A stretch of 41,687 nucleotides of DNA from a virus. Its lineage: Duplodnaviria; Heunggongvirae; Uroviricota; Caudoviricetes. Below are positions 1 to 40,512 of the stretch, in pieces. The position numbers were made by a program, and so were the translations under genes. The DNA lies in IMG/VR virus record IMGVR_UViG_2585427754_000009, one strand, 5' to 3'. The notes under the pieces were generated by a model. The model was given only the letters and a program-made list of their open reading frames with translations, was not told the DNA's origin and made no database searches. Within the stretch, counting starts at the first letter, position 1; each line of letters opens with the position of its first letter.

Positions 1-1164
1 TTACACATCATTAGTACCTTCCTTATTTTTTGACTGGGACAAATTTGGGACCGATGGGTTCAGGATCGAGTCTATTTGCCGTGCGTGTTCGGTAAGGTGA
101 TTAGGTGCAAGGTGAGCATATCGACGAACCATTTCGATAGACTCCCAGCCTCCCATTTCCTGTAACACTGACAACGGGACTCCGGCTTGAACCAGCCAAC
201 TTGCCCAGGTGTGTCTCAAGTCGTGAAATCTGAAATCATCAATACCAGCCCGTCTCAGCGCCGCTTTCCAGGCTGTGTTTGCGTCATACCGCATCTTCCT
301 TACTGTTGGCGCTTTCGTTCCGTCTGGTTTGGTACAGCTTTCCTTGTACACAAATACCCAACGGTGATGATTCCCGATTTGTTTTTTCAATACGCGACAT
401 GCAGTATCATTCAGCGCAACGCCAATTGCGCGGTTTGATTTACTCTCTTCCGGGTTTATCCATGCCACCCGGCGCTGCATATCTATTTGTTGCCATTCAA
501 GGTTGATGATGTTCGAGCGTCTTAAGCCTGTTGCCAGTGCAAATTCAACAACAGACTTTAATGGCTCCGGACATTCATCAATCAGCCTTTGTGCTTCATG
601 GGGCTCCAGCCAGCGGATCCGTTTATTCTTTGGTTGAGGCACTTTAATAATTGGTGCCTTATCCAGCATTTTCCATTCACGCTCTGCGGCTCTTAGTAGG
701 GCCTTTATAAATGAAAGATGCGTAGCCTTCGTTGCAACGGACGCTGGTTTTGGCGTGTATTCTGGAACAGGTTTCCCTTTTTTTCTGCATGCTTCTGCCC
801 TGAGTTTCCAGTTTTCCTCATGACGCCGGTTCGTCATTTTCTGCATTGCTGAATAAATTTTTGATTCAGTAATGTCTCTTAGTTGCATTCCTGCGAAATG
901 TTGAAGCCAGAATCCGATCCGGCTTTTGTCATCGTCCAGTGATTTTTTATGTGCTTTCTCTTCAAGCCACCTGACACACGCTTCCTCGAACGTTATATCA
1001 GGTATTTCACCAAGTTTGCTGACCCGCCATGCTTCAGCCTTTAGCTTGTCATGGAGTTCTGTCGCCTGCCTTTTGTCCTTTGTTCCAAGAGACTGTTTAA
1101 ATCTTTTACCGTTCGGCAATGTGAAACTGGCGTACCATATTTCACCTCTGCGGAAGAGTGACAT
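1..1164 (-). CDS. int: Tyrosine integrase, P22/SfV-type
   Basis: 387-aa ORF with stop at 1-3. N-terminus [14 protein letters not shown] and C-terminal HDLRHTWAS...MVRRYAHL (R-H-R-Y recombinase signature). Recognised from memory as P22-type Int. Last gene of the leftward operon; 5' end overlaps xis. Confidence 0.95.
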
Positions 1165-1391
1165 TTTCTTTCCTCTGTTATGCCATCACCCGCGCTCACC
1201 TGGACAGTATGCAGCGGAGACTGAAGAGCCGCAATGCAGGCTTGTCGTGTTGTGAGGTAAGGAGATTTATTCTTAGTGGGATCTTTGCGTGTTGCCTGAA
1301 GACGCCCTGTGCGTATCCAGTTAATGGCAGTCGGTCTGGATATCTTGAGAAAATGACAGGCCTCATCGAGTGTGAGGCTGTATGGCTCCAT
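1041..1391 (-). CDS. xis: Excisionase, P22 Xis-like (116 aa)
   Basis: Internal Met of ORF 1041..1475 gives [31 protein letters not shown] (HTH), matching P22 Xis from memory. ATG at 1389-1391 overlaps the stop of the upstream ORF (TAATG on coding strand). 124-bp out-of-frame overlap with int. Confidence 0.85.
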
Positions 1392-1696
1392 TATTTCACC
1401 TCTTGCTGTGACATTGTTGAAAAATGGATACCAGCTCGTTGCTGCCAGACGATCCAACCGAGAGTCATATCCCATGCCATGTATTCGTTATCGCCGTTTT
1501 TTGCTCTCCGACGATCTACTAAGTCACCGAAACGCTTTTCCATGAATAATTCATAAGCTTCGCGTTCATCTGGTTCTACTTCCAGAGATAGGAGTGCGAT
1601 TTCATAAGCACGGCGCTCAATATCGTCTCGCACGTCAAGGCTGCTGATACGCTCTTTAATTTCTTTAATCAGTTCTTTGTCGGTAAAAGTGGTCAT
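1391..1696 (-). CDS. Hypothetical early protein (YfdT-like, 101 aa)
   Basis: ORF translationally coupled to xis (TAATG) and to the upstream ORF (start at 1696 where that ORF ends). Size and position match the CPS-53 yfdT slot from memory. Confidence 0.7.
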   Translation of the reverse strand: MTTFTDKELIKEIKERISSLDVRDDIERRAYEIALLSLEVEPDEREAYELFMEKRFGDLVDRRRAKNGDNEYMAWDMTLGWIVWQQRAGIHFSTMSQQEVK

Positions 1697-2058
1697 TATG
1701 CTCCAGCCTCCGGTGCTTTTGGCATTACTGCCCAGTGAGTGATATTGACGTTTTCAAGGTCCCCGACCTGAAATGTCCACTGCCATTCTCCGGTTTCTTT
1801 TTGTCCCCAGGTGTACCAGAGAGAACGCCAGCCAATTAGCCAGCCTTCTCCGTTAGCATCGAATAACAAAACACTTTCATTTGCTGGTGGCAGTTCAGTT
1901 GACACTGGTATTACTTTGTTTTCCTGTGCTGCACATTTAGCTTCAAGCGCATCGAATTTACGCACCAGGTATTCAGCATCTGTTTCATTTACTTTCAGAT
2001 CTCGCGGTACACATCTCCCACGAAGAAACCCTTCCATTTCGAAAACATTCATGCGCAT
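1696..2058 (-). CDS. Hypothetical early protein (YfdS-like, 120 aa)
   Basis: ORF in the same leftward operon; overlaps the upstream HD-domain gene by 10 bp. Confidence 0.7.
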   Translation of the reverse strand: MRMNVFEMEGFLRGRCVPRDLKVNETDAEYLVRKFDALEAKCAAQENKVIPVSTELPPANESVLLFDANGEGWLIGWRSLWYTWGQKETGEWQWTFQVGDLENVNITHWAVMPKAPEAGA

Positions 2059-2585
2059 TTGCGTAACTCCGATAACTCGTTAAAGCGTTCCATAAACATC
2101 CCGTAGGCATGGCCCGGTGCCAGTGGAATCACGTTGAACATCTCTGTTGCCGGGATACCTTCCAGTACAGGCCAGAAAGAGCCATCATCAAGCCCGAGAT
2201 CGCGGCGTTCGGTTGCCAGCATGATGAGATCGGCATATTTCACGGGCGTACTCATAACTGGGGGTAACCCGTATTTCTCACGGATTACGGCGTCTATTTT
2301 TTCTTCCATTTGTTTATAGTCAGGAAGAAGGCGTTTCAGTGGTGCGGGAATGTCCTGGCAATACGCTTCTGTTGCATCATGCATTAACGCTTCAAAAGCA
2401 AATTCCTGCGGCACCAGCTGGCTGCAAAGAACCGCATGTTGGGCGACGCTGTAGAAGTGCGAAAGATGACCGGCAAAGCGACAGATATTTGAAAGGGAAA
2501 CCGCGATATCGTTAATATCGATGTCGTCTTTATTTATCCTGTCATAATAAAAATGCTTCCCGGAAAAAGTTTTAATAAATGACAT
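2049..2585 (-). CDS. HD-domain phosphohydrolase (YfdR-like 5'-deoxynucleotidase, 178 aa)
   Basis: Internal start MSFIKTFSG with GGAG 7 nt upstream (longer ORF reaches 2612). H..HD metal-binding motif (LMHDATEAY) and further His/Asp residues typical of the HD superfamily. Confidence 0.8.
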   Translation of the reverse strand: MSFIKTFSGKHFYYDRINKDDIDINDIAVSLSNICRFAGHLSHFYSVAQHAVLCSQLVPQEFAFEALMHDATEAYCQDIPAPLKRLLPDYKQMEEKIDAVIREKYGLPPVMSTPVKYADLIMLATERRDLGLDDGSFWPVLEGIPATEMFNVIPLAPGHAYGMFMERFNELSELRKCA

Positions 2586-2712
2586 TTTGTTCTCCACGTA
2601 TATGCGCTGCACCGCGCTGAATTCTGGTAAAAAGAATCCCTCACCATCCGGCGATTATTGAGTAAATTACGTTTCCATAAATGCCCCCGCAGGGGCATTT
2701 GCAGTAATGAAA

Positions 2713-3537
2713 TCAGGCGGTGAAAGTACCAATAAAGGTTTCTACTTTGCTGTCCTTGAATTTCTCAACAAGCAGATCACGAAATTCGTTAGCCATTTCT
2801 TCCTGCACCGCCTCCAGCTGAATAATGCGCAGAACCAGTACAGGACGATCGCCAGTGATAATACTGAGGCGTAATTTAAACGGACGTTCTTTCAGACCTT
2901 CAAACGGAACGCATTTAAATTCAAATGCCACTGGCATAATGTCTTTGGTCTTCGCTTCGACAGACTCCATCAGGGAGCGTTTGCCGCTGAAGTCATTATC
3001 TTCAAAATCAGCGGTCTGGTTTGCTTCAATCGTGATTTTACGGACAGCCGCAGCCGCTTTTGTTGCCTGAATAGCGTCACCATTAGCATCAAAGCCCACA
3101 AGATAGTCGGCCCAGTCTTCAATCCATTCTGCCAGTGACTTCTGGGAGTTACGCTCGCCGTTAACAGACAACAGAGCAGAGAACGGTGCTGTCTTTTTCA
3201 GTTTGAGTGTGGCGGTGTTATCTGCGTGACCTGGTTCATCAATAGTACCCAGGTTAAGCACACTGACGGCACGCATATTATCAGCATCGATAAAGCAGCG
3301 GGTGCCTTCATCTGCAAGATCTTTAGAATAACGGGTAAAGTCATCGATGCTGGCAGTGGAAAGCGCACCACGGAAACGGAAGCGATTTAAATTAAATTTT
3401 TCCAGATCATGAATGCGGAAATTCTCAGGCAATGCCACAGCATCGGCACCAATCTTACTGATAATTTCATTAACACCCTGAGCAGAAATAAGGGCATGGA
3501 TTTGATTAATTGCGGTTGCGTCTAAGTTCTGAGACAT
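2713..3537 (-). CDS. DUF2303 / YfdQ-like protein (274 aa)
   Basis: 274-aa ORF beginning [14 protein letters not shown]; recognised from memory as the YfdQ family of CPS-53-like prophages. Same leftward operon. Confidence 0.75.
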
Positions 3538-3602
3538 AATAAGTCCTCACTATATAAAGATATTCAGTGATGAGATAAATAATCAGTTAATTAAAAACGA
3601 TA

Positions 3603-3965
3603 TTAACGACCTGCTGCGCGGAGTTTTCCGTCAGGTTCACCGGCAAGAGTCAGTAACTGTCCCTGGTCTTCCTGCAGAATAGTCAGGCGACCACCGCGAT
3701 TGACATACATCGGCGTTTCGGTGGTGTCTTCTTCGGAAATTTTCCCGCGGTTAGTCGGGCGAACATATGAGAGTTTGTGTTTGATTTTCACACGGTTCTC
3801 ATCAAATGGTTCGATTTCCAGGTTGAGTGAGACCTTACCTTTGGTTTTCGTGTTCATCACACCGGAAGCGACTTCACTGAGAACTGCGCCGATTTTGGTT
3901 TCAAATACGCCGCCGTCCAGCTCCCCGATAAATGCCTGCACATCAGTACTGCGTTCGCTAGCCAT
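3603..3965 (-). CDS. Hypothetical early protein (YfdP-like, 120 aa)
   Basis: Start chosen at MASERSTDVQ (ATG at 3963-3965) because AGGAG lies 9 nt upstream; the ORF-track start at 4214 lacks an RBS and runs into structured non-coding DNA. Confidence 0.7.
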   Translation of the reverse strand: MASERSTDVQAFIGELDGGVFETKIGAVLSEVASGVMNTKTKGKVSLNLEIEPFDENRVKIKHKLSYVRPTNRGKISEEDTTETPMYVNRGGRLTILQEDQGQLLTLAGEPDGKLRAAGR

Positions 3966-4433
3966 TTTGCTGCTCCTCATCATATCGACCCTGCAAGGCC
4001 GATTAGTTTCTCCACAAAACAGAGAAGAACACCTGCGGTGGCAGCCGCCCGGATGGATTGGGTTATGAGCCCGTCGTCCGGTGATGCTCTTCTCTGTTTT
4101 GTAAAAAGGACGGTACCAGCCGGAAGCAAGAGTACAAGCTGGTACCGCCAGGACTACACACAGCATAAAGTTGTGGTGCCGGGTGCCTCCCGGTGCCTGG
4201 CGAAGGTTGCACACCAGGCGGGTGGGTATCTACAGAAGGTCGACTGTCAGCCTCAACCTTAACCCGCGTGCGCTGAGCCGCATTCACCACAACGCTAAGA
4301 ATTCTCTCTGGTTGAAAATACTTAGCTGTTATGTGCCTGCTTTTAGCCACATCAGGCGAGGTGGACCTGGTTATTCCCCAACAACAAGGATTCGGTTAAT
4401 CTGGTTATCCCCAACAACGCAAAAGGAAAAGAA

Positions 4434-4868
4434 ATGTCCGGTAATATCTACACGCTGTACAAATCCCACTGTGAAAATGTTGGAAAGTATCGGGGCATTG
4501 AAATCAGTGGGGTAGTGTCATCAGTCGAAATAAGCAAAGTCGAATCAAGGGCAACATTACTTACTCTTCTGGACCTTGTCTTACATGAGCACCGGAAGAA
4601 ATTCGGCACTCCCTATAATCAGTTGAATGGGAAAAAGGCTCTGGTTCACCTTATTCTGATGAAGCATCACTGGATGCCAAAACAGATTAATGAGATGAAA
4701 TTTGATGAACTTCTTCTTTCAATTCAGGATGAACTCACACTTGATAAAATAAGCGTAACCGCCCAGAAATTTTTAGATTATCGAGACTGGAGATCACAAA
4801 TTCATCACTTTGATGATTTTGACGAAAATGAATGGGATCCTAATTTGTCTGCACAATATCTAAAGTAA
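4434..4868 (+). CDS. Hypothetical protein, 144 aa, no family recognised
   Basis: ORF with AAGGAAAAG Shine-Dalgarno-like sequence 5-13 nt upstream of the ATG. Opposite orientation to the surrounding leftward operon. Preceded by two 18-19-bp direct repeats. Confidence 0.5.
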   Translation: MSGNIYTLYKSHCENVGKYRGIEISGVVSSVEISKVESRATLLTLLDLVLHEHRKKFGTPYNQLNGKKALVHLILMKHHWMPKQINEMKFDELLLSIQDELTLDKISVTAQKFLDYRDWRSQIHHFDDFDENEWDPNLSAQYLK

Positions 4869-4983
4869 CATCCTGTGATAAAACCGTGATTTCCTGATCC
4901 AGTTTTTTTAAGGAGTCTATTATTTCCTGTCGATAAGACAGCACTTCACGAAGCTGGTTTATAGCTGCCAGCTTCTTTGCCAT
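4840..4983 (-). CDS. Small ORF (47 aa), possible remnant of a leftward-operon gene
   Basis: In the pre-insertion reading frame a stop lies 2 codons upstream of the IS target site, so only a 47-aa ATG-initiated ORF (MAKKLAAINQLREV...) is possible. Weak RBS. Confidence 0.25.
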   Translation of the reverse strand: MAKKLAAINQLREVLSYRQEIIDSLKKLDQEITVLSQDVTLDIVQTN

Positions 4984-5031
4984 CCACTCGTAAATTTCCT
5001 CATTTGTGTATCCGGGCGCGACGATTTTGGG

Positions 5032-5040
5032 TTCTGTTTT
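5032..5040. repeat. Target-site duplication (TTCTGTTTT), left copy
   Basis: Identical 9-mer at 6097-6105 directly flanks the other IS end. Confidence 0.9.
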
Positions 5041-6096
5041 GGCTTTGTTGAATAAATAAGATTTCGTGCGAACGACCCTGTAGCTGGCTGGATTTTCAGG
5101 CAATACGCACGCTTTCTGGCATCCCAGCCTTTGTCATCCTGTTCAACGCACGCACCATGGCCATAGCTTCCGCTACCTGACCATCGTAGTCACGCAGCGT
5201 CAGTGAATCTCCCAACAACTGCTTCATTCTGTACATTGCCGTTTCCGCTATCGAGCGACGGTTATATTCCGTTGTCCATTTCCACCGTGCATTGCTTCCG
5301 CTCAGCCGCTGATTAGCAACGGCACGGTTGCGGTCTGCGTACTCACCGGGCCAGTAACCTGCTCCTTTTCGGGGAGGAATAAGCGCGCTGATTTTTTTGC
5401 GGCGCAGTTCATCGTGACAGAGCCGGGTATCGTAAGCCCCGTCTGCCGCGGCTGCCCTGATTTTTCTGTGAGTCTGCCGGATAAGGCCCGGGAAGGCTTC
5501 TGAGTCCGTGACGTTATTCAGCGACAGGTCTGCACAGACAACTTCATGTGTGTTGCTGTCAACAGCAAGATGCAACTTTCGCCAGATACGACGGCGCTCT
5601 TTGCCGTGCTTTCTGACTTTCCATTCGCCTTCACCAAAGACCTTCAGCCCGGTGGAATCAATCACCAGGTGTGCGATTTCACCCCGGGTGGACGTTTTGA
5701 AACTGACATTAACCGACTTTGCCCGCTTACTGACACTGGTGTAATCCGGGCAGCGCAACGGAACGTTCATCAGGGCAAAAATGGAATCAATAAAACCCTG
5801 CGCAGCCCGCAGGGTCAGCCGGAATACGCGTTTAATCACCAGAACGGTGGTGATGGCGAGATCAGAATAGCGCTGGGGCCTTCCTCGTGATGAAGGCGTT
5901 GCCGACTCATACCAGGCCTGAATCGCTTCATCATCCAGCCAGAAAGTGAGGGAGCCACGGTTGATGAGAGCTTTGTTGTAGGTGGACCAGTTGGTGATTC
6001 TGAACTTTTGCTTTGCCACGGAATGGTCTGTGTTGTCGGGAGGATGCGTGATCTGATCCTTCAACTCAGCAAAAGTTCGATTTATTCAACAAAGCC
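5041..6096 (-). mobile_element. IS903-like insertion sequence (IS5 family), 1056 bp
   Basis: Terminal inverted repeats GGCTTTGTTGAATAAAT(A/C) at 5041-5058 and 6079-6096 (17 of 18 identical). Single transposase ORF. Flanked by a perfect 9-bp direct repeat. Confidence 0.92.
5096..6064 (-). CDS. IS903-family transposase
   Basis: 322-aa ORF ...QKFRITNWSTYNKALINRGSLTFWLDDEAIQAWY... recognised from memory as IS903/IS102 transposase (DDE). True start may be a few codons inside the ORF. Confidence 0.92.
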   Translation of the reverse strand: MKDQITHPPDNTDHSVAKQKFRITNWSTYNKALINRGSLTFWLDDEAIQAWYESATPSSRGRPQRYSDLAITTVLVIKRVFRLTLRAAQGFIDSIFALMNVPLRCPDYTSVSKRAKSVNVSFKTSTRGEIAHLVIDSTGLKVFGEGEWKVRKHGKERRRIWRKLHLAVDSNTHEVVCADLSLNNVTDSEAFPGLIRQTHRKIRAAAADGAYDTRLCHDELRRKKISALIPPRKGAGYWPGEYADRNRAVANQRLSGSNARWKWTTEYNRRSIAETAMYRMKQLLGDSLTLRDYDGQVAEAMAMVRALNRMTKAGMPESVRIA

Positions 6097-6105
6097 TTCT
6101 GTTTT
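6097..6105. repeat. Target-site duplication (TTCTGTTTT), right copy
   Basis: Identical to 5032-5040. Confidence 0.9.
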
Positions 6106-6359
6106 GTGCATTTCACACCTCCTCAAGTTATCAGTTACTTGTTGATGGGGACCAGATTGTTAAAGAGCTAAGCGTCCTGTAGGGCGCTTTTTTGTTGCTA
6201 ACGAATCATCCTGGACTTCATATGCCCCAGGCGGCTACTTCGTGGGCGTCCTGCCTGTTCGTTTTTGACATTTACTGACTGCTTACGACACATGCACCGT
6301 GTTGCAACCAGATTTTGTTGTAATCCTGTAGTTGGTCTGGAACAAAAGATAAAATTAAA

Positions 6360-6396
6360 TTGCTAGATATGCAAGTGATATTTGCGGGATATGCAA
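6360..6396. promoter_or_regulatory. Putative OL operators (two 15-bp sites)
   Basis: TTGCTAGATATGCAA (6360-6374) and TTGCGGGATATGCAA (6382-6396) match TTGCGTGATAAGCAA in the cI-cro intergenic region at 13 of 15 positions; TTGC...GCAA dyad. Confidence 0.5.
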
Positions 6397-6409
6397 ATTG
6401 ATAGGTAAT

Positions 6410-6430
6410 AAAAAGCCACCTTTCGGTGGC
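6410..6430 (-). terminator. Intrinsic terminator downstream of cI
   Basis: GCCACC-TTTC-GGTGGC hairpin (6415-6430); on the minus strand it is followed by a U5 run (A-run 6410-6414 on plus). Lies 20 bp after the cI stop. Confidence 0.6.
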
Positions 6431-6449
6431 CGATGGAAGGATATTGAGG

Positions 6450-7142
6450 TTAATTATGTCTCTTAAGGGTTTGCGACTGACTGATTAAGACCTTTCCAAA
6501 GACCATGAATCGGTGTTCGTTTTCGCTAGTAATTCCCCATTCACGGTAAATCTGGTTATCAGAAATCACCAGCAGTTTGTCAGGAATCATTTGAAGTCTT
6601 TTAACGTATATTTTGTCATCAAAACCAAAGACATATATACCATCACCATCAAACTGATTGATGCTGACATCAACGAAGATGAGATCTCCTGGCTCAATGG
6701 TTGGACACATACTGTCCCCACGAACGTTGATAACTTTGATGTGATTGGCTGGTCGTCCGCCGAACATTGATACAGCATTATCAGTTCTGTATTCGATGGC
6801 ATGAATCACATCAATGACATCACCGCCCTGGATAAGGCCATTTCCCGCACTGGCACTGATATCCAGCATTTCAATACGGAACACATCCTTCACCTGCGCA
6901 ACATCCTCATCATTACTGTTTTTATATACAGTATTACTTTTGTGGGCAGAGGTAAAGAGATCAGCAATATCAACACCTAAGCTCTTGGCAATATTACTCA
7001 GTGTTTGTTCGGTAAATTGTTTTTGCTTACCCGTTTCTAAGCGCGAGATGTTCGCCGCATCTACTCCTATTGCTTCAGCGAGATCGGCGATTTTCATGTT
7101 CTTCGCTTGGCGAAGTTGTCTGACTCGGTTTCCTATGTTCAT
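6450..7142 (-). CDS. cI: CI-type repressor (HTH_XRE + S24 LexA-like peptidase)
   Basis: N-terminal HTH (KIADLAEAIGVDAANISRLETGK), Ala-Gly cleavage site (SASAGNG), catalytic Ser (VRGDSMCPT) and Lys (VKRL). Divergent from cro. Confidence 0.9.
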   Translation of the reverse strand: MNIGNRVRQLRQAKNMKIADLAEAIGVDAANISRLETGKQKQFTEQTLSNIAKSLGVDIADLFTSAHKSNTVYKNSNDEDVAQVKDVFRIEMLDISASAGNGLIQGGDVIDVIHAIEYRTDNAVSMFGGRPANHIKVINVRGDSMCPTIEPGDLIFVDVSINQFDGDGIYVFGFDDKIYVKRLQMIPDKLLVISDNQIYREWGITSENEHRFMVFGKVLISQSQTLKRHN

Positions 7143-7162
7143 GCGTTTATTACATTTCTTTA

Positions 7163-7225
7163 TTGCGTGATAAGCAAATCAACTTGCGCAAAATAATTGC
7201 GTGAAATAACATGCATAACGCGCAA
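7163..7225. promoter_or_regulatory. OR operator region between cI and cro
   Basis: TTGCGTGATAAGCAA (7163-7177), palindrome TTGCGCAA (7184-7191), TTGCGTGA repeat (7197-7204), and a reverse-strand match TTGCGCGTTATGCAT (7211-7225). Sits between divergent cI and cro starts. Confidence 0.55.
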
Positions 7226-7239
7226 TATTTGGAGGGCGT

Positions 7240-7500
7240 ATGCAATCACCATTACGAAATGTGCGTAAGGCGCATGGTTTCACTTTGCAGCATGTTGCTG
7301 CGGGTGTTCAAGTCAATCCAGCGACGTTGAGTCGTATTGAGAGGCTGGAGCAGATTCCATCTATCGAGCTTGCAGAACGTTTAGCCAATTTTTTTAAGGG
7401 TGAAGTCAGCGAAATGCAGATTCTTTATCCGGCACGTTTTCAATCTAGCCAAAACCAGAATGGGTTTAAACCACAGGAACAGGAGGTGAACCGTGGGTAA
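7240..7500 (+). CDS. cro: Cro-like HTH_XRE regulator
   Basis: 86-aa ORF with HTH (FTLQHVAAGVQVNPATLSRIERLE); GGAGGG 4 nt upstream of the ATG; divergent from cI. Confidence 0.85.
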   Translation: MQSPLRNVRKAHGFTLQHVAAGVQVNPATLSRIERLEQIPSIELAERLANFFKGEVSEMQILYPARFQSSQNQNGFKPQEQEVNRG

Positions 7501-8044
7501 GCATCACTGGAAAGTAGAAAAACAGCCTGAGTGGTACGTGAAAGCTGTCAGAAAAACTATCGCAGCGTTGCCGGGGGGGTACGCTGAAGCTGCTGACTGG
7601 CTGGATGTAACAGAGCACGCATTATTTAACCGCCTTCGTGCCGATGGCGATCAGATTTTCCCGCTGGGATGGGCAATGATTTTGCAACGTGCTGGTGGAA
7701 CTCACTTCATTGCTGACGCTGTGGCGCAGTCTGCAAATGGCGTCTTTGTGTCTCTTCCTGATGTCGAGGATGTGGACAACGCCGATATCAACCAACGCCT
7801 GCTGGAAGTCATTGAACAGATCGGCAGTTATTCAAAACAGATTCGTTCAGCAATTGAAGACGGTGTAGTGGAACCGCATGAGAAGACAGCAATTAACGAT
7901 GAGCTGTACCTCTCAATTTCGAAGCTGCAGGAGCATGCAGCTCTGGTCTACAAAATCTTTTGCGTTTCAGAAAGTAGTGACGCCCGCGAGTGTGCAGCTC
8001 CGGGCGCCGTGGCGTGTCGTGACTGTGGAGAAACTAACGCATGA
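7493..8044 (+). CDS. CII-like regulatory protein (CP76 / YdaT-like family)
   Basis: GTG start with AGGAGGTGA RBS. 183-aa product [21 protein letters not shown]... recalled as the phage CII (CP76)/YdaT-like family found after cro-like genes. Confidence 0.6.
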
Positions 8045-9332: not shown

Positions 9333-9821
9333 ATGAGTCTTTTGAATGAAGTTCAGAAATTCATTGAAGCCCATCCGGGATGTACTTCCGGAGACATTGC
9401 GGATGCTTTTGCAGGTTACTCACGGCAGCGCGTTCTGCAGTCAGCAAGCAAGTTACGTCAGAGTGGGCGTGTGGCTCACCGTTGTGAAGGAGATACACGC
9501 AGACATTTCCCGCGCCTGACTGAGAGAGCGCAGGAACCGGAACCACAACCAGTTCGAGAAACCAGACCTGTGCGCAATTTCTATGTCGGCACTAACGATC
9601 CCCAGGTGATTTTGTGCCTGACCCGCCAGGCTGAAGAACTGGAGTCCAGGGGCTTATACCGTCGTGCTGCAACCGTGTGGATGGCGGCATTCCGTGAAAG
9701 CCACTCCCAGCCAGAACGAAACAATTTTCTGGCGCGTCGTGAGCGGTGCTTACGGAAAAGCAGCAAGCGCGCTGCATCGGGTGAAGAGTGGTATCTCTCA
9801 GGGAATTACGTGGGGGCTTAA
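9333..9821 (+). CDS. PerC-like transcriptional activator family protein
   Basis: ATG at 9333 with GGGGGTGA RBS. Central LTRQAEELESRGLYRRAATVWMAAF recalled as PerC-family signature. Low certainty. Confidence 0.45.
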   Translation: MSLLNEVQKFIEAHPGCTSGDIADAFAGYSRQRVLQSASKLRQSGRVAHRCEGDTRRHFPRLTERAQEPEPQPVRETRPVRNFYVGTNDPQVILCLTRQAEELESRGLYRRAATVWMAAFRESHSQPERNNFLARRERCLRKSSKRAASGEEWYLSGNYVGA

Positions 9822-10474
9822 TGAGTAATAAATATTGCCAGGCGCTGGCGGAACTGCGGAACAAACCAGCCCATGAACTGAAGGAAGTGGGCGATCAGTG
9901 GCGCACGCCGGACAACATTTTCTGGGGAATTAACACCCTGTTTGGCCCGTTTGTTCTGGATCTGTTCACTGACGGTGATAACGCCAAATGTGCTGCGTAT
10001 TACACGGCGGAAGACAACGCGCTGGCGCATGACTGGTCAGAACGCCTTGCGGAGCTTAAAGGTGCTGCCTTTGGTAATCCCCCATACAGCCGCGCCAGTC
10101 AGCATGAGGGGCAATACATCACCGGCATGCGTTACATCATGAAGCATGCCAGTGCCATGCGTGATAAAGGCGGGCGCTATGTTTTCCTGATCAAAGCTGC
10201 CACCAGCGAAGTGTGGTGGCCGGAAGATGCAGATCATATTGCTTTTATTCGCGGGCGTATTGGTTTTGAACTGCCTGCCTGGTTTATCCCGAAGGATGAG
10301 AAGCAGGTGCCGACAGGCGCTTTCTTCGCTGGTGCTATTGCTGTTTTCGACAAGACCTGGAAGGGACCGGCAATCAGCTACATCGGGCGCGATGAACTTG
10401 AGGCATGTGGTGAGGCCTTTCTGGCGCAGGTTCGCCAGCAGGCAGAAAAACTGGTCAGGGAGATGGCGGCATGA
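9821..10474 (+). CDS. dam: Phage Dam-type N6-adenine DNA methyltransferase
   Basis: TAATG coupling to the upstream gene. NPPY catalytic motif (AAFGNPPYSR). 217 aa; typical phage orphan Dam family. Confidence 0.85.
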   Translation: MSNKYCQALAELRNKPAHELKEVGDQWRTPDNIFWGINTLFGPFVLDLFTDGDNAKCAAYYTAEDNALAHDWSERLAELKGAAFGNPPYSRASQHEGQYITGMRYIMKHASAMRDKGGRYVFLIKAATSEVWWPEDADHIAFIRGRIGFELPAWFIPKDEKQVPTGAFFAGAIAVFDKTWKGPAISYIGRDELEACGEAFLAQVRQQAEKLVREMAA

Positions 10475-12013: not shown

Positions 12014-13009
12014 GTGACCGTGAGAGCACTACTGACCCCTGAAATTGCCCCGCGTATGGGGATCGTATTGTTCAGGCCAGGTTCAGAGCTGATGCCCTTG
12101 TTTATGCAGGGGCGTGTCCTGCTGGAGCCTGAGCCGGAACGTTATTCATCTTTCGCCAGTGGTGCCGTTCCCGCGGCATCACAACCGCTGGCGGATGATC
12201 CTGCCGTTCGGGCCGTGTTCCGCAATGAGGCAGTGATCCGTCGTGCTGGTGGCGTGGAATGTCTTGAAAGCTGGTTACTTCGTGAAAAAGGCTGCCAGTG
12301 GCTTCATTCCGACTGGCACAGCGAGAACATGACAACAATGCGACACGCTCCGGGCGCAATCCGTCTGTGCTGGCACTGCGATAACCAGCTGCGCGATCAG
12401 TTCACGGAACGGCTGGAATCAATGGCAACGGATAACTGTGCCCGCTGGGTGTTGTCTGTTGTGCGTCGGGATCTCGGTTTTGATGACAGTCACGTTGTGA
12501 CAATGCCGGAACTGTGCTGGTGGCTGATTCGTAATGACCTTGCGGACGCCTTACCGGAAAGTGCAGCCCGTAAGGCACTGAGATTACCGAAGCCTGTTGT
12601 GCCGTCTGTCACCCGGGAAAGTGACCTTGTGCCTTCGGTTCCTGCCACCAGCATCATCCAGGATAAGGCGAAAAAGGTGCTGGCGCTGAAAGTGGATCCG
12701 GAGTCGCCGGAGTCTTTTATGTTACGCCCAAAACGTCGCCGCTGGGTTAATGAAAAGTACACGCGCTGGGTTAAGACACAGCCGTGTGCATGTTGTGGAA
12801 AGCCTGCTGATGATCCCCACCACCTGATAGGTCACGGTCAGGGTGGAATGGGAACAAAAGCGCATGACCTCTTTGTGTTGCCTTTGTGCAGAAAGCATCA
12901 CGACGAGCTGCATGCGGATACCGTGGCATTTGAAGAGAAGTATGGCTCCCAGCTGGAGCTGATATTTCGTTTTATCGATCGTGCGCTGGCAATAGGTGTA
13001 CTGGCGTAA
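12014..13009 (+). CDS. DUF968-family protein with C-terminal Cys/His (HNH-like) motif
   Basis: GTG start. C-terminal CACCGKPADDPHHLIGHGQGGMGTKAHDLFVLPLCRKHHDELH; position in the nin-like region upstream of Q. Confidence 0.6.
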   Translation: MTVRALLTPEIAPRMGIVLFRPGSELMPLFMQGRVLLEPEPERYSSFASGAVPAASQPLADDPAVRAVFRNEAVIRRAGGVECLESWLLREKGCQWLHSDWHSENMTTMRHAPGAIRLCWHCDNQLRDQFTERLESMATDNCARWVLSVVRRDLGFDDSHVVTMPELCWWLIRNDLADALPESAARKALRLPKPVVPSVTRESDLVPSVPATSIIQDKAKKVLALKVDPESPESFMLRPKRRRWVNEKYTRWVKTQPCACCGKPADDPHHLIGHGQGGMGTKAHDLFVLPLCRKHHDELHADTVAFEEKYGSQLELIFRFIDRALAIGVLA

Positions 13010-13022
13010 GTGGAGAACGAGC

Positions 13023-13775
13023 ATGAACCTTGAAGCCTTACCGAAATATTACTCCCCAAAATCTCCAAAATTGAGCGATGACGCACCGGCGACAGGCTCT
13101 GGTGGTTTAACAATTACGGATGTGATGGCTGCGCAGGGGATGGTGCAGTCGAAAGCACCGCTTGGGTTTGCCTTATTCCTGGCAAAAGTTGGTGTTCAGG
13201 ATCCTCAGTTTGCGATTGAAGGTCTGCTCAATTACGCGATGGCACTGGATAACCCGACATTGAATAAATTGAGTGAAGAAACCCGGCTACAGATTATTCC
13301 TTACCTTGTGAATTTTGCCTTTGCTGATTATTCCAGGTCTGCGGCAAGTAAGGCTCGCTGTGAGCATTGTGCTGGTACTGGATTTCATAATGTATTGCGC
13401 GAAGTGGTGAAACACTCCAGAAGCGGGGAATCTGTTATCAAGGAAGAGTGGGTGAAGGAACTATGTCAGCATTGTCATGGTAAGGGAGAAGTCAGCACAG
13501 CGTGCAGAGGGTGTAAGGGTAAAGGTATTGTCCTGGATGAAAAAAGGACCCGGCTTCATGGCACGCCTGTTTATAAGATTTGTGGGCGTTGCAATGGAAA
13601 TCGGTTTAGCCGTTTACCAACCACACTGGCGCGGCATCATGTCCAGAAGCTGGTACCAGACCTGACGGATTATCAGTGGTACAAAGGATATGCAGATGTC
13701 ATTGATAAACTGGTGACAAAGTGCTGGCAGGAAGAAGCATATGCTGAGACGCAATTAAGAAAAGTGACGAGATAA
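13023..13775 (+). CDS. Q: Late-gene antiterminator Q
   Basis: Start MNLEALPKYY with GGAGA RBS. Paired CxxC zinc-finger motifs (CEHCAGTG, CQHCHGKGE, CRGCKGKG, CGRCNG). Immediately followed by promoter and terminator. Confidence 0.8.
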   Translation: MNLEALPKYYSPKSPKLSDDAPATGSGGLTITDVMAAQGMVQSKAPLGFALFLAKVGVQDPQFAIEGLLNYAMALDNPTLNKLSEETRLQIIPYLVNFAFADYSRSAASKARCEHCAGTGFHNVLREVVKHSRSGESVIKEEWVKELCQHCHGKGEVSTACRGCKGKGIVLDEKRTRLHGTPVYKICGRCNGNRFSRLPTTLARHHVQKLVPDLTDYQWYKGYADVIDKLVTKCWQEEAYAETQLRKVTR

Positions 13776-14369: not shown

Positions 14370-15422
14370 ATGAAAAATACTGTAAAAATAAACAGTATTG
14401 ATTTAATCAACGCTGATTGCCTGCATTTTATTCAGTCCCTGCCTGATGATTCCATTGACCTGATAGTTACCGATCCGCCGTACTTCAAAGTGAAGCCCAA
14501 CGGTTGGGACAATCAGTGGAAAGGGGACGAAGATTACCTTAAGTGGCTGGACCACTGTCTGGCTCAGTTCTGGCGGGTGTTAAAACCTGCCGGAAGCCTT
14601 TACCTGTTCTGTGGACATCGCCTGGCATCTGATATCGAGATCATGATGCGTGAACGTTTCAACGTGCTTAACCATATCATCTGGGCGAAGCCGTCCGGAC
14701 GATGGAACGGGTGTAATAAAGAAAGCCTGCGGGCATATTTCCCCGCTACAGAGCGCGTTCTGTTTGCTGAACATTACCAGGGGCCATATCGCGGCAAAAG
14801 TGACGGCTATGCGGAAAAAGAAAGGGAACTCAAACAGCACATAATGGCACCGCTGATATCGTATTTCAGGGATGCACGTGCCGAACTGGGTATAACGGCA
14901 AAACAGATTGCCGAAGCCACTGGTAAGAAAAACATGGTTTCCCACTGGTTTGGTGCCAGTCAGTGGCAGTTGCCGAATGAGGCTGACTACCGGAAGTTGC
15001 AGGCACTGTTTTCCCGTATAGCGGCAGAGAAGTTTCAGGAACAACAACTGGAACAGACACACCACCAGCTGGTGGCATCTTATGATTCACTGAATCGCAA
15101 ATATTCTGAATTGCTGGATGAGTTTAAATCTCTCCGGCGCTATTTCTCCGTATCAGTCTCCGTGCCTTATACCGATGTCTGGACGCATAAACCCGTTCAG
15201 TTCTACCCGGGTAAACATCCGTGTGAGAAACCGGCGGATATGCTCCGGCAAATAATCAATGCCAGTAGTCGACCAGGTGATCTGGTTGCTGATTTTTTTA
15301 TGGGATCTGGTTCCACAATAAAAGCAGCAATGGAGCTGGGGCGTCGGGCGTTAGGTGTTGAGCTTGAGTCAGATCGGTTTAACCAGACAGTGAAAGAGGT
15401 AAGTGAACTGGTGGGGAAATAA
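14370..15422 (+). CDS. Orphan DNA methyltransferase (N6A/N4C type, beta-class motif order)
   Basis: DPPY catalytic motif near the N-terminus (DLIVTDPPYF) and AdoMet motif FxGSGST near the C-terminus (FFMGSGSTIKAAMELGR). No adjacent nuclease gene. Confidence 0.8.
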   Translation: MKNTVKINSIDLINADCLHFIQSLPDDSIDLIVTDPPYFKVKPNGWDNQWKGDEDYLKWLDHCLAQFWRVLKPAGSLYLFCGHRLASDIEIMMRERFNVLNHIIWAKPSGRWNGCNKESLRAYFPATERVLFAEHYQGPYRGKSDGYAEKERELKQHIMAPLISYFRDARAELGITAKQIAEATGKKNMVSHWFGASQWQLPNEADYRKLQALFSRIAAEKFQEQQLEQTHHQLVASYDSLNRKYSELLDEFKSLRRYFSVSVSVPYTDVWTHKPVQFYPGKHPCEKPADMLRQIINASSRPGDLVADFFMGSGSTIKAAMELGRRALGVELESDRFNQTVKEVSELVGK

Positions 15423-29832: not shown

Positions 29833-30279
29833 TTACTGTGCGAACACGCAATTTCGGCCTGATGGGGAGCCGACAATTCTGGACATTTTTTCGCAAATAA
29901 CAGTTACTTGTTCTCCTTTTTTAAGAGCAGCAGCTGTTGATTTTTCAGAGTCTTGCATCTCCATTCTTGCTGGCATGAATTCATTTTCAGTTCTGAATTT
30001 AATAATTATAGAGTCAGTAAAGTCCTTATCAATGGATTGTACGATACCTCTAACGGCGATTAATTTACCTTTTAACTGTTCATCGGTAGCGACTTCATTT
30101 TCTTCATACTCTTTAAACAGCTGTCGAGCAGTAGTGTTGTAGATTTCTTTTTGCGGTGCCGCAGCTTCCGTATCGGATGAGTATGAAGAATTAGAGCCTT
30201 TATCGTTATTGCCTGCAAAATATCCAATAATCACCAACCCGATGAAAATATATAAAATCCATTTTAATAATTTCTTCAT
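29833..30279 (-). CDS. Hypothetical signal-anchored protein (148 aa) on a reverse-oriented AT-rich moron
   Basis: AAGGTGA RBS. N-terminal hydrophobic anchor (LLKWILYIFIGLVIIGYFAG) then a Ser-rich linker and a small beta-rich domain. Only minus-strand gene inside the plus-strand tail operon. AT-rich. Confidence 0.6.
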   Translation of the reverse strand: MKKLLKWILYIFIGLVIIGYFAGNNDKGSNSSYSSDTEAAAPQKEIYNTTARQLFKEYEENEVATDEQLKGKLIAVRGIVQSIDKDFTDSIIIKFRTENEFMPARMEMQDSEKSTAAALKKGEQVTVICEKMSRIVGSPSGRNCVFAQ

Positions 30280-37817: not shown

Positions 37818-39707
37818 TTAATCGTGTTTTGGCCATACTTTCAATGCAATTTCCCCCAACTTTTTACCCCGCTCCAGGATTTCATCCTCATCCCATTTAT
37901 CCTTAACTATAAGTGGAATGTTCAGTCGTAGATTGGTGTGGACGATGAGAGCATCACGTTTTTTCAGAAATACAGCATTCTGAACAGAACGGTTTACGCT
38001 AAGGTTAAGCAAAGTTAGATTTCCCAACGTAGCTATCGCTTGTTGCCGTTTCCTTACCAGTAGCTGTTCAGGGGTAAGATCGGTTCCAGACAGAACAATT
38101 TGGTTCAATACCGTAGCATCTGAATTTGTCACCATATGACCATTTTCGAGAGGCCAACAGGAATACCAACTTTGAGGCATAAGATGATCGATATCGAGGT
38201 TAGAAAGATTTGGAACATCAGGCTTCTCTGTCTTCACTTGGCGACAAAGTTCTCTTTCAAGTTCCGTTAACATTGAGCGCATTTTCGGTGCGTCGAGCCT
38301 GCCAGGATAAAGTGGAGCATTGATGCAAGCGTTGAGAAATTCTGAGTCCCCAGGCCAACGTGAGGCTTCGCCATTTAAGCTATTGAGGATATTACGTAAC
38401 TCAACACTGGAAATTTCCGTTTTAGACAAGTGCCGCAATACATTCATAAATACATTGTTGTAATTCTTTGGCGTCAGGCCACATACGGCTCTTCGTACTA
38501 CGTAGGAGACAAGATCATTATACATGGCTGCTTTCTCATCATCGGCGATGTTAGCTATCGAAATGAACAAAGCAAGCGGATAAAGTGTCGTCACATCATA
38601 GGCTGCGATGCGATGTCCAAAGTGTGAGATGGGGGTTGTGCCAAAACCACCAACCAATTCTTTATATTGTGATGCATATTGTTTGAGGCGCTTTACTTGC
38701 AGATCTGCTCGTTGTGAAGGCAAGTCCTTACTTACATAATCACGATACTCATTGTAAAGACGAGACAGATCGATTTCACGTTGCCTTTCTGATTGCAATG
38801 TCGCATGCACTAGCCACTCCATGCGTGGTTTATTAATACGACCACGACGTTGTCTTTCTGACCAGTACGTATCTTCAAAGATCTTCCACTCATTCTCATA
38901 TAATTCAACAGCATTAATATTTTCATGTTCAGCGCACATAAAAATATAATTGCGAATAAGATCTGTGGCATGAAGTTCCGCACCTCTGCCATTTAATGTT
39001 TCAAAAATTATTTGAGCGTCATCTTCAGCCTCGAGAAATATGCTTACTAGTTTCAGATCCGTCAAGACAGCCTCAATTAATGCTACAGCATTTTCTCGTG
39101 GTGAGTGATTTTCTATTTTAATCCACTTTATAAAGGCTTCAGTAAAAAAACATAATGCTTCTAGTGATGGCGGGTGATTAAAATGCTTACGCAACGTACC
39201 ATGCTGCGTGAAACTATCAGAGAATACATTCCGGATATCGTCAATATTTTCAACATTAAAACTTTGAATAAAATGAGTTTGATCCCGAAAAGTTGGCCAC
39301 AGTTTGAAGCGCTCTACTTCTTTATTTCGCATTGTGTCTTCGTTTGAGTTTTTCAGGCAAGACGAAATGAGAGGCTCTAAGTTGGAAAGATCTGTCGCAC
39401 GTAATGCTAATCGGATGGATGCCAGAACATATTGAAGAGTGGTCAATCGTTGCTGACCATCAATAATATGTATGGAATCTACACCTAATAATCCTTTTTT
39501 TGGTTGAGGTTCCAGTACCACTGCACCAAGGAAATGGGGAGTTGGTTTTGTACCCGAGAGCCGGGATTGTGCTTTCTCTAGGATATCCTCCAGTAGAGCT
39601 GACCATTGGTTTCGCTGAGTCCATACATAGGCACGTTGATAGAATGGAACGCAGTATTGTCGGCGGTCTTGAAAAAGTTGTTGGACAGTTAGCGTCTCGG
39701 ATTTCAT
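37818..39707 (-). CDS. GmrSD-family type IV restriction endonuclease (DUF262 + DUF1524)
   Basis: N-terminal DUF262 motifs (VPFYQRAYVW and IIDGQQRLTTL). C-terminal DUF1524 His-Me finger region (DIDHLMPQSW...LGNLTLLNLSVNRSV). Start at MKSETLTVQQ (39705-39707) preferred over 39767. AT-rich island. Confidence 0.8.
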   Translation of the reverse strand: MKSETLTVQQLFQDRRQYCVPFYQRAYVWTQRNQWSALLEDILEKAQSRLSGTKPTPHFLGAVVLEPQPKKGLLGVDSIHIIDGQQRLTTLQYVLASIRLALRATDLSNLEPLISSCLKNSNEDTMRNKEVERFKLWPTFRDQTHFIQSFNVENIDDIRNVFSDSFTQHGTLRKHFNHPPSLEALCFFTEAFIKWIKIENHSPRENAVALIEAVLTDLKLVSIFLEAEDDAQIIFETLNGRGAELHATDLIRNYIFMCAEHENINAVELYENEWKIFEDTYWSERQRRGRINKPRMEWLVHATLQSERQREIDLSRLYNEYRDYVSKDLPSQRADLQVKRLKQYASQYKELVGGFGTTPISHFGHRIAAYDVTTLYPLALFISIANIADDEKAAMYNDLVSYVVRRAVCGLTPKNYNNVFMNVLRHLSKTEISSVELRNILNSLNGEASRWPGDSEFLNACINAPLYPGRLDAPKMRSMLTELERELCRQVKTEKPDVPNLSNLDIDHLMPQSWYSCWPLENGHMVTNSDATVLNQIVLSGTDLTPEQLLVRKRQQAIATLGNLTLLNLSVNRSVQNAVFLKKRDALIVHTNLRLNIPLIVKDKWDEDEILERGKKLGEIALKVWPKHD

Positions 39708-40512
39708 GGTATACCTGTAAGCGACATTGTACAAAAGTGAGGAGTTAATCTGATTTAGAACAATCATTTTATGTTGCTATGATACAACGTATTTGTTACC
39801 GGTTAAGTAAAAAACGCGTCTGAACGCTGACGTTTTAGGGCTTTACTAGTTATTCTTTCTTATCTCTTCATCATCCCATCGGCATCCTGTCGAGGTTGTT
39901 GACTTGTTGTTATTTATTTTGTTTAGGCGCTGTTTAATTATTATTGATGGGACTGGTGGTGAGAGGTGATTGAAACCGCAGACAGGTCGTATGCAAGACG
40001 TGCTGCGGTTGGCTGGTAAATGTTAGATAGTGCGAGTATTGAATGATTTCTAGCCGTTATTGATTTTACGTATTTTTGTATGAGAGGATTTGCATCTCCT
40101 GCCACCGACCCTCCATGACTTTACGCCACTGTCTCTAGGGCTGCTATGTGCCAGGAGCAGCCATTGCTAAGTCCATCCTGTATTGTGCAGGTCAGCTCGT
40201 TTTTAAAGAGTCCGGCCATCATCTTACTGGTACAGACACCATATACTTTGTGACGGTCAGGCTACATATGCACAACTCAACTTATTCATCTATTTTTTGC
40301 TTTAGCATGTCAGTGTTGCTTTCTCGTCGGCGGGTGAGCGGTGACCTGACCTGTCGATAAAGGAACGTAGCACGTTTTATGCAACACCCGCATGCGGCAG
40401 AAAATTATTGCCGAACGTTTACCCCTGTCAACAAGCTTTACTTTCTGAGGCGCGCCAGCCCGCGAGGAAAACAATCTGAACATCAAACAATTAATGACAC
40501 AAGAAATACGAT

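What the first reader, a model, noticed from the sequence alone, without database searches (positions are those of the whole stretch)
5032..6105. IS903-like element inserted between the putative OL/pL and the leftward early operon
The element has intact 18-bp terminal repeats, a full transposase and a perfect 9-bp target duplication, indicating a recent, still mobile insertion. It lies about 260 bp downstream of the OL-like operator pair and upstream of every leftward gene, including xis and int. Such an insertion should be polar on pL-driven transcription and could impair excision, i.e. a domesticating lesion. It may also supply outward promoter activity.
Basis: partly seen in the sequence, partly recalled or inferred. 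Interest (0 to 1): 0.6.

Follow-up and report, generated by a model that had tools for sequence, protein, structure and literature searches.

The report
IS102-like insertion in prophage early gene
An intact, recently arrived copy of a common E. coli jumping gene (an IS102/IS903-type insertion sequence) sits inside the first small gene of a prophage's leftward early operon; this is an ordinary event, and whether it cripples prophage excision is doubtful because termination-resistance signals lie upstream of it.

Summary
The element is real. The IS spans 5041-6096 (1056 bp) and is flanked by a perfect 9-bp duplication, TTCTGTTTT. It has a full 307-aa DDE transposase. Its terminal repeats match at 17 of 18 positions, which is normal for this isoform.

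It is IS102-like: 94.9% identical to IS102 and 87.7% to IS903. It differs by 1 nt from a copy on an E. coli plasmid. The same insertion is 100% identical in an independent E. coli draft assembly. The uninterrupted site occurs in 95 complete E. coli genomes and in isolated phages (SfIV, vB_EcoM-689R6).

- The IS is not intergenic. It lies after codon 5 of a 68-aa gene of unknown function, the first gene downstream of pL, and destroys it.
- The 18th base of the terminal repeats is mismatched.

The claim that the IS is polar and blocks excision cannot be tested here, and I think it is overstated:
- Upstream of the IS, the pL leader carries an exact rrn-type boxA and a widely conserved structured RNA.
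- The native operon already contains a strong terminator-like hairpin and about 875 nt of untranslated RNA.
- Phage HK022 carries IS903 in its pL operon, in the same orientation, and is viable.
- int and xis are 100% identical to those of phage SfIV.

The finding is ordinary. The conserved leader RNA is the more interesting by-product.

The parts
5041..6096 (-). IS102-like insertion sequence (IS903 group, IS5 family), 1056 bp. Strand is that of the transposase, the same direction as pL transcription.
   Evidence: Identity is 94.9% to IS102 of pSC101 and 87.7% to IS903 of HK022. A copy on E. coli plasmid p1290_1 is 1055/1056 identical.
5032..5040 (.). Left copy of the 9-bp target duplication TTCTGTTTT. 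On the minus strand it repeats codons 3-5 (AAA ACA GAA) of the interrupted gene.
6097..6105 (.). Right copy of the 9-bp target duplication TTCTGTTTT.
5041..5058 (+). Terminal inverted repeat at the transposase-distal end, GGCTTTGTTGAATAAATA. Position 18 is mismatched.
   Evidence: The p1290_1 copy has the same end.
6079..6096 (-). Terminal inverted repeat at the transposase-proximal end, GGCTTTGTTGAATAAATC.
5096..6019 (-). Transposase, 307 aa from a GTG start (annotated elsewhere as 322 aa from an upstream TTG).
   Evidence: It is identical in amino acids to the p1290_1 copy (WP_000654811.1), 97.4% to the IS102 transposase and 93% to the IS903 transposase. There are no frameshifts or stops.
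5794..5816 (-). Terminator-like hairpin inside the transposase gene, in the pL direction (9 bp, -16.6 kcal/mol, then UUUUAUU). It is conserved in IS903 of HK022.
6097..6111 (-). 5' stub of the interrupted 68-aa gene (codons 1-5, ATG at 6111-6109, RBS GAGGAGG at 6125-6119). As it stands, it reads MHKTEGFVE and stops inside the IS repeat.
   Evidence: The intact gene is annotated in E. coli H2 as WP_032247027.1.
4840..5031 (-). 3' part of the interrupted 68-aa gene (codons 6-68 plus stop). The family is PHROG 1744, function unknown.
   Evidence: Gene callers find only a 47-aa remnant, P0044.
6360..6396 (.). Two OL-like operator sites, TTGCTAGATATGCAA and TTGCGGGATATGCAA. A -10-like TATCTT lies just downstream on the minus strand.
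   Evidence: The promoter assignment is my own reading of the sequence and was not flagged by the consensus scan.
6201..6262 (-). Conserved structured leader RNA. It has an outer stem, an invariant 22-nt core GGCAGGACGCCCACGAAGUAGC (6255-6234), and a covarying hairpin (6231-6210).
6157..6189 (-). Hairpin (6189-6170) followed by an exact rrn-type boxA, GCUCUUUAACAA (6168-6157). Both lie upstream of the IS on the pL transcript.
4109..4149 (-). Native terminator-like hairpin of the left operon (13 bp, -23 kcal/mol, then a U run). It is part of a very stable fold spanning 4160-3990.
1..1475 (-). int (1-1164) and xis (1041-1475), the distal genes of the left operon.
   Evidence: Both proteins are 100% identical to those of phage SfIV.
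6450..7142 (-). cI-type repressor (HTH plus S24 peptidase), followed by its terminator at 6431-6414.

Best explanation
Shown:
- A complete copy of an IS102-like insertion sequence (IS903 group of the IS5 family) transposed recently into an SfII/SfIV-type myovirus prophage of E. coli.
- It landed after codon 5 of the first gene downstream of pL, a 68-aa protein of unknown function, and duplicated 9 bp.
- That gene is now reduced to a 9-residue stub plus an untranslated remainder.
- The transposase reads in the same direction as pL.
- The repressor, operators, leader, int and xis are untouched.

Inferred:
- The pL transcript picks up termination resistance upstream of the IS, from an exact boxA (which loads NusB/NusE) and a conserved structured leader RNA.
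- Those signals are what the native operon needs to cross its own terminator-like hairpin and about 875 nt of untranslated RNA.
- The IS should therefore lower distal expression (xis, int) only partly, not abolish it. The IS903 of phage HK022 behaves this way.
- Prophage induction would also drive sense transcription through the transposase gene.
For: Anatomy and empty site.

Identity and integrity of the IS.

Independent assembly: L112 from GCA_000713315.1 shows the same junctions and is 100% identical over 6144 bp.

Recency: no complete E. coli genome and no phage record carries the insertion.

Leader signals upstream of the IS:
- boxA is exact and is the only copy in the window.
- A boxA-like motif lies within 260 nt downstream of the conserved RNA core in 18 of 92 genome loci, most often at a fixed offset of about 64-65 nt.
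- The RNA's stems covary: 96.6% of cells are paired against 71% in shuffles, 0 of 500 shuffles reach the observed value, and 9 pairs show changes on both sides.
- The RNA always lies just downstream of a cI-type gene, in phages with different repressors.

The native operon needs read-through: a hairpin of -23 kcal/mol followed by a U run, a fold with z = -6.5, and no translated frame between 4840 and about 3965.

BoxA/Nus complexes protect long untranslated transcripts from Rho (PMC7665894).

IS903 lies between nun and cIII in the left operon of the viable phages HK022 and O276, in the same orientation.

int and xis are identical to those of SfIV.
Against: - No transcript or excision data exist for this prophage.
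- The function of the leader RNA is unproven. It is not a member of the put family, and no N-like protein was found.
- BoxA/Nus antitermination acts on Rho-dependent termination and is only partial, whereas the IS contains an intrinsic-terminator-like hairpin facing pL.
- No promoter-like site above chance lies downstream of the IS to rescue xis/int.
- The HK022 precedent relies on put RNA, a different element.
Confidence: 0.55

Rival explanations
1. The IS is strongly polar: pL transcripts end inside or just beyond it, so xis and int are not induced and the prophage is locked in place. It would be a domesticating lesion.
For: - A terminator-like hairpin faces pL inside the IS.
- Translation stops 63 nt before the transposase start, and again for about 250 nt after it, which invites Rho.
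- No promoter-like site above chance lies between the IS and int.
- No N homologue was found.
- The same gene is interrupted by IS1 at three other codons in other E. coli prophages, once together with a deletion of the adjoining left-arm genes. That fits recurrent inactivation of the left operon.
Against: - BoxA and the conserved leader RNA lie upstream of the IS.
- The native operon already contains a stronger hairpin and a longer untranslated stretch than the IS adds.
- HK022 and O276 tolerate IS903, with the same internal hairpin, at the equivalent place.
- The rest of the prophage looks complete: cro, cII-like, O-like, Q-like, lysis, terminase, head and tail genes, at 96.5% identity to an isolated phage.
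Confidence: 0.3
2. The insertion matters mainly because it inactivates the 68-aa gene itself. If that first pL product harms the host when the prophage leaks or is induced, as kil-type genes in other lambdoid left operons do, then knock-outs would be selected. This is compatible with either level of polarity.
For: - It is the first gene after pL and has a strong RBS.
- The family is confined to Escherichia/Shigella prophages.
- Independent lesions are seen in homologues: IS1 at three sites, frameshifts in an A7 run, and loss of the stop codon.
Against: - The function is unknown: there is no Pfam or PADLOC match, and the only NCBIfam hit is far below its cut-off.
- Most homologues are intact, with clusters seen on 247, 108, 55 and 39 contigs.
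- A7 frameshifts may be sequencing errors.
- The AT-rich target may simply attract IS1 and IS903-type elements.
Confidence: 0.12
3. The junctions are an assembly artefact, with a repeat collapsed or misjoined, so there is no real insertion.
For: IS copies are common causes of misassembly. Two metagenome contigs that carry the remnant gene stop short of the IS.
Against: - A perfect 9-bp duplication flanks precise IS ends.
- Both flanks join into a sequence found uninterrupted in 95 genomes.
- An independent NCBI assembly has the identical 6144 bp spanning both junctions.
Confidence: 0.01

Closest known systems
IS102 of plasmid pSC101 (IS903 group, IS5 family)
   Same: - The window IS is 1056 bp, IS102 1057 bp.
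- The first 17 bases of the terminal repeats are the same.
- There is a single DDE transposase, 97.4% identical over 307 aa.
- Nucleotide identity is 94.9%.
   Different: There are 51 mismatches and 2 gaps. The window element is 1 nt shorter, and position 18 of one terminal repeat is A instead of C. This puts it just under the customary 95% line for calling two elements the same IS (that convention is from my own knowledge).
IS903 (Tn903; copies in phages P7 and HK022)
   Same: It has the same architecture, the same 17-bp repeat core and the same 9-bp target duplication (a family trait, from my own knowledge). The transposase is 93% identical with no gaps. The internal hairpin facing the transposase direction is conserved.
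   Different: Nucleotide identity is only 87.7%, so this is not IS903 proper. 'IS903-like' is correct as a group label only.
The IS903 copy in the pL operon of phage HK022 and the lambda hybrid O276
   Same: An IS of the same group lies a few hundred bp downstream of pL. It follows a leader RNA element, its transposase is co-directional with pL, and it sits upstream of the recombination and int/xis genes. Both phages are viable.
   Different: In HK022 the IS lies between genes (after nun), and read-through is provided by put RNA. Here the IS interrupts the first gene, and the leader element is a different RNA plus boxA whose function is unproven.
IS1 insertions in homologues of the same 68-aa gene in other E. 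coli prophages
   Same: The target gene is the same and lies directly downstream of a cI-type repressor and leader.
   Different: The IS, the insertion sites (codons about 35, 40 and 47) and the immunity types all differ. One case is accompanied by a deletion of left-arm genes.

Membership tests
IS5 family, IS903 group | Single DDE transposase of the IS5 type | tested here: met
   Pfam DDE_Tnp_1_5 (E 9e-39) and DDE_Tnp_1 (E 6e-32) both match. NCBIfam NF033579 scores 354.5 bits against a cut-off of 140. D121, D193 and E259 are present in the gap-free alignment with the IS903 transposase; that these are the catalytic residues is from my memory of the IS903 literature.
IS5 family, IS903 group | Length about 1057 bp with about 18-bp terminal inverted repeats beginning GGCTTTGTTGAATAAATC | tested here: met
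   The element is 1056 bp with 17 of 18 repeat positions matching. The ends align base for base with IS903 of HK022 and IS102 of pSC101.
IS5 family, IS903 group | 9-bp target-site duplication | tested here: met
   TTCTGTTTT is present on both sides, and a single copy is present in the uninterrupted site of 95 genomes. A second copy of the isoform has its own 9-bp duplication, TTCTGGAAG.
IS903 in the strict sense | Near-identity (about 95% or more at nucleotide level) to the reference IS903 | tested here: not met
   927 of 1057 columns are identical to IS903 of HK022, which is 87.7%. Megablast gives 88.0% to IS903 of P7.
IS102 | Near-identity (about 95% or more at nucleotide level) to IS102 of pSC101 | tested here: inconclusive
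   Identity is 94.9% over 1058 aligned columns, and the transposase is 97.4% identical. This is borderline, and ISfinder naming was not available.
Lambdoid OL/pL control region | Repeated operator sites on both sides of the repressor gene, with a leftward promoter overlapping the left set | tested here: inconclusive
   TTGC-N7-GCAA occurs three times in the window, all flanking cI. A -10-like TATCTT follows the left pair, but the consensus promoter scan did not report it. No binding or transcript data are available.
Lambda-type nut site (N-dependent antitermination) | boxA followed by a boxB hairpin, plus an arginine-rich N protein encoded downstream | tested here: not met
   An exact boxA is present. 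However, the hairpin precedes it, no N-like protein is found in the left or right arm, and the first leftward genes of related phages are unrelated and not arginine-rich.
HK022/HK639 put antiterminator RNA | Sequence and structure similarity to putL/putR; copies in both the left and right operons | tested here: not met
   Pairwise alignment is weak. A covariance model of the window's element finds nothing in the HK022 immunity region or at the annotated putL-like RNA of HK639, even at E up to 10. There is only one copy in the window.
Any Rfam family (for the conserved leader RNA) | Match to a curated covariance model | tested here: not met
   No match at gathering thresholds over the whole window. 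Only a chance-level OmrA-B hit inside the IS appears at E up to 5 over 4800-7600.

The most novel reading that the evidence does not exclude
The interesting object is not the IS but what lies just upstream of it: a 62-nt structured RNA at the start of the left operon, with an invariant 22-nt core.
- It is conserved in temperate phages and prophages across Enterobacterales that differ in repressor and in downstream genes.
- It is often followed by boxA.
- It is absent from Rfam and unrelated to put.

It could be a third kind of early antitermination signal, alongside N/nut and put. It would act in cis on RNA polymerase or Nus factors. That would explain why left operons of this phage group tolerate morons, internal terminators and IS insertions such as this one.
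Probability: 0.3. Interest if true: 0.7.

Novelty: already known. Interest (0 to 1): 0.2.

Why it matters
The insertion itself is routine. It shows an active IS102-like element sampling prophage targets in E. coli, and it knocks out one small gene of unknown function.

It would matter only as a natural experiment. An IS-bearing and an IS-free version of one inducible phage type both exist (this prophage versus vB_EcoM-689R6 or SfIV). Comparing them could show whether the left operon of this widespread phage group is transcribed by termination-resistant polymerase.

The repeated IS hits in the same 68-aa gene hint either at a hot target or at selection against that gene or against the left operon.

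Tried and rejected
- Rfam over the whole window, and at a permissive threshold around the site: nothing relevant.
- The idea that the leader element is an HK022-type put RNA: rejected. The pairwise alignment is weak and the covariance model finds nothing in HK022 or HK639.
- The King et al. 2011 paper on new antiterminator RNAs could not be read, so I cannot exclude that it mentions this element. A full-text search for the 18-nt core found no paper.
- N-like antiterminator: none was found among left-arm or early right-arm proteins, nor among the first leftward genes of four related phages.
- A second boxA or second leader copy in the right operon: none.
- Promoters downstream of the IS, or a hybrid outward promoter at the IS exit end: the scan found fewer sites than in shuffled sequence.
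- Function of the 68-aa protein: PHROG 1744 'unknown', no Pfam or PADLOC match, an NCBIfam CheZ hit far below its cut-off, and homologues that are all 'hypothetical'. I did not run a structure prediction, because the family is too shallow for a useful alignment.
- The same insertion in complete E. coli genomes or in phage records: not found. It was found only through the 47-aa remnant protein.

Full report
**What is there**

Reading 4600-6500 shows an element bounded by GGCTTTGTTGAATAAAT at 5041-5057 and its reverse complement at 6080-6096. The 9-bp direct repeat TTCTGTTTT lies immediately outside, at 5032-5040 and 6097-6105. The 17-mer occurs nowhere else in the window; 0.13 matches with up to three mismatches are expected by chance. 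The 18th base of the repeat differs between the ends, A on the left and C on the right.

The element is 1056 bp. Its only long frame is on the minus strand. Counted from the GTG at 6019 it gives a 307-aa protein, with the stop at 5096-5098. That protein matches the two IS5-type DDE transposase Pfam domains and NCBIfam NF033579, far above its cut-off.

**Which IS it is**

- The element is 87.7% identical to the IS903 copy of phage HK022, and 88% to that of P7.
- It is 94.9% identical to IS102 of pSC101.
- The transposase is 93% identical to that of IS903 and 97.4% to that of IS102, without gaps.
- Many copies at 99% identity or more exist in E. coli chromosomes and plasmids, annotated 'IS5 family transposase'.
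- One copy, on plasmid p1290_1, differs at a single silent position over 1056 bp. It has the same 17-of-18 ends and its own 9-bp duplication.

'IS903-like' is therefore right as a group label. The closest named relative is IS102, and the mismatched 18th base is the normal state of an isoform that is evidently transposing.

**The insertion is real and recent**

- Deleting 5041-6105 gives a 686-bp sequence that is uninterrupted at full length in 95 complete E. coli genomes. Two of them match at 99.9% identity.
- The same sequence runs across the insertion point in the isolated phages SfIV, Kati, vB_EcoS-569R4 and vB_EcoM-689R6.
- With the IS plus 300-bp flanks as query, no complete E. coli genome and no phage record covers 80% or more.
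- The 47-aa remnant product that gene callers find next to the IS led to an NCBI draft assembly, GCA_000713315.1. Its contig is 100% identical to window 1840-7983 and spans both junctions.

The window is thus from E. coli. The insertion is present in a handful of assemblies, and it is not an assembly artefact.

**Where exactly it sits**

On the minus strand, the sequence just right of the IS reads GAGGAGG-N7-ATG CAC AAA ACA GAA, and then the IS begins. The left flank continues in frame. The restored gene encodes 68 aa (MHKTEPKIVAPGYTNEE...). It is annotated as a hypothetical protein in E. coli H2, directly downstream of the repressor gene.

The IS is therefore not intergenic. It lies after codon 5 of the first gene of the left operon, and the duplicated 9 bp are codons 3-5. 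What remains is a 9-residue stub that stops inside the IS repeat, plus an untranslated 3' part.

The protein matches PHROG 1744 (unknown function) over its full length. It has no Pfam or PADLOC match. Its homologues are all hypothetical proteins of Escherichia and Shigella.

**The surroundings**

The window is a complete-looking prophage of the SfII/SfIV/vB_EcoM-689R6 myovirus group, which integrates at thrW next to proA.

- Right of the IS lie a cI-type repressor (6450-7142), cro, a cII-like gene, an O-like gene, a Q-like antiterminator, and lysis, terminase, head and tail genes.
- TTGC-N7-GCAA occurs three times in the window: twice at 6360-6396 and once at 7163-7177, on either side of cI.
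- Left of the IS lies a rightward ECs1072-family moron (4434-4868) that overlaps the 3' end of the 68-aa gene.
- Next comes an untranslated, highly structured stretch.
- Then come a yfdP-like gene (real start about 3965), DUF2303, a YfdR-like nucleotidase, two small genes, xis and int.
- Int and Xis are 100% identical to those of the functional phage SfIV.

**Would the IS be polar?**

Nothing here measures transcription, so this part is inference.

For polarity:
- Translation stops 63 nt before the transposase start, and again after the transposase stop.
- The IS contains a 9-bp GC-rich hairpin followed by UUUUAUU in the pL direction (-16.6 kcal/mol).
- No promoter-like site above chance lies between the IS and int.

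Against strong polarity:
1. The pL leader upstream of the IS carries an exact rrn-type boxA, GCUCUUUAACAA, at 6168-6157. It is the only copy in the window. BoxA recruits the Nus complex, which protects long untranslated transcripts from Rho, though only partly (PMC7665894).
2. Just upstream of boxA lies a 62-nt conserved RNA element, described in the next section.
3. The native operon already contains a stronger obstacle than the IS adds. This is a 13-bp hairpin with a U run at 4149-4109 (-23 kcal/mol). It lies within a fold of -76 kcal/mol (z = -6.5) and within about 875 nt that are not translated in the pL direction. Either pL transcription is naturally termination-resistant or the distal genes have another promoter. 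In both cases the IS adds little.
4. Phage HK022 and the hybrid O276 carry IS903 in the left operon, between nun and cIII. It has the same orientation and the same internal hairpin, and both phages are viable.

I therefore rate partial polarity as more likely than a block, with moderate confidence.

**The leader RNA (outside the finding's coordinates)**

Window 6262-6201, on the minus strand, is shared with 50 phage records. These include SfV, SfII, SfIV, phiNP, AH07, YeP1-3, ZF40, ST64B, SPN3UB, SEN34, mEp237 and mEp460. In the annotated records among the 14 inspected, it lies within a few hundred bases downstream of a repressor-type gene (about 100 nt in most), in the same orientation, whatever the repressor.

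Its 22-nt core, GGCAGGACGCCCACGAAGUAGC, occurs exactly in 92 stretches of species-representative genomes, nearly all Enterobacterales.

In a 95-sequence alignment the outer stem and the second hairpin covary strongly. In all, 96.6% of cells are paired against 71% in shuffles, 0 of 500 shuffles reach the observed value, and 9 pairs show changes on both sides. Slid controls give 21-50% paired.

A boxA-like motif follows within 260 nt in 18 of the 92 loci, most often at a fixed offset of about 64-65 nt.

The element matches no Rfam family. A covariance model built from it finds a single copy in the window, and finds nothing in the HK022 immunity region or at the annotated putL-like RNA of HK639. 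The first genes downstream differ between phages and are not N-like. A cis-acting role in left-operon transcription is a reasonable guess but is not shown.

**Recurrent hits in the same gene**

Some homologues of the 68-aa protein run straight into translated IS1 ends, at three different codons. The identification of those ends as IS1 is my reading of the sequences. In one complete genome the truncated gene is followed by IS1 InsAB', and the adjoining left-arm genes are missing. Other variants are frameshifted in an A7 run or have lost the stop codon; some of these may be sequencing errors. Intact forms are far more common.

This pattern is compatible with three readings: a hot AT-rich target, selection against the gene, or selection against left-operon expression. 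I cannot tell them apart.

**Verdict**

The element is a known kind of IS in a known kind of place. The proposed domesticating effect is possible but less likely than a mild one. Interest in the finding itself is low. The leader RNA deserves separate study.

Noticed in passing
window 6201-6262 (minus strand), with boxA at 6157-6168: A 62-nt structured RNA sits in the pL leader, with an invariant 22-nt core (GGCAGGACGCCCACGAAGUAGC) and two covarying stems. It is conserved downstream of repressor genes in 50 phage records and in 92 genome stretches across Enterobacterales. It is often followed by an rrn-type boxA. It matches no Rfam family and is unrelated to HK022/HK639 put RNA.
   Followed up: partly
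window 3990-4160 (minus strand): The untranslated stretch of the left operon folds to -76 kcal/mol (z = -6.5). It has a 13-bp hairpin plus a U run (4149-4109, terminator-like), followed by a 25-bp stem. No Rfam family matches. The ORF listed as 3603-4214 probably starts only at about 3965.
   Followed up: partly
homologues P0040, P0046, P0049; loci L116 and L118: The same 68-aa first pL gene is interrupted by IS1 at three other codons in other E. coli prophages. One case also has a deletion of the ECs1072-to-DUF2303 segment. Further variants are frameshifted in an A7 run or have lost the stop codon.
   Followed up: partly
window 4434-4868 (+): An ECs1072-family 'phage-associated protein' gene is transcribed against the left operon and overlaps the 3' end of the 68-aa gene by 29 nt. 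Its likely terminator (the plus-strand hairpin at 6170-6189) is now separated from it by the IS.
   Followed up: no
window 37818-39767 (-): A 649-aa GmrSD-type type IV (modification-dependent) restriction enzyme (PADLOC mREase_IV at 1440 bits; Pfam GmrSD_N and GmrSD_C) lies next to the tail-fibre genes. The related Shigella Sf phages carry O-antigen modification genes at this position.
   Followed up: partly
window 9788-10474 (+) and 14370-15422 (+): The prophage carries two DNA methyltransferase-like genes. One is in the early right operon. The other lies between the Q-like antiterminator (12996-13775) and the lysis genes.
   Followed up: no
window 29833-30279 (-): A tRNA_anti-like (OB-fold) protein gene lies on the opposite strand, inside the tail gene block. 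It looks like a moron.
   Followed up: no
window 40379-41687: The right end of the window holds a FlxA-like ORF (40563-40895) and a 4-fold beta-flower protein gene (41256-41687, minus strand). The window may therefore extend past the prophage's own genes. The window starts exactly at the int stop codon, so attL is not included.
   Followed up: no
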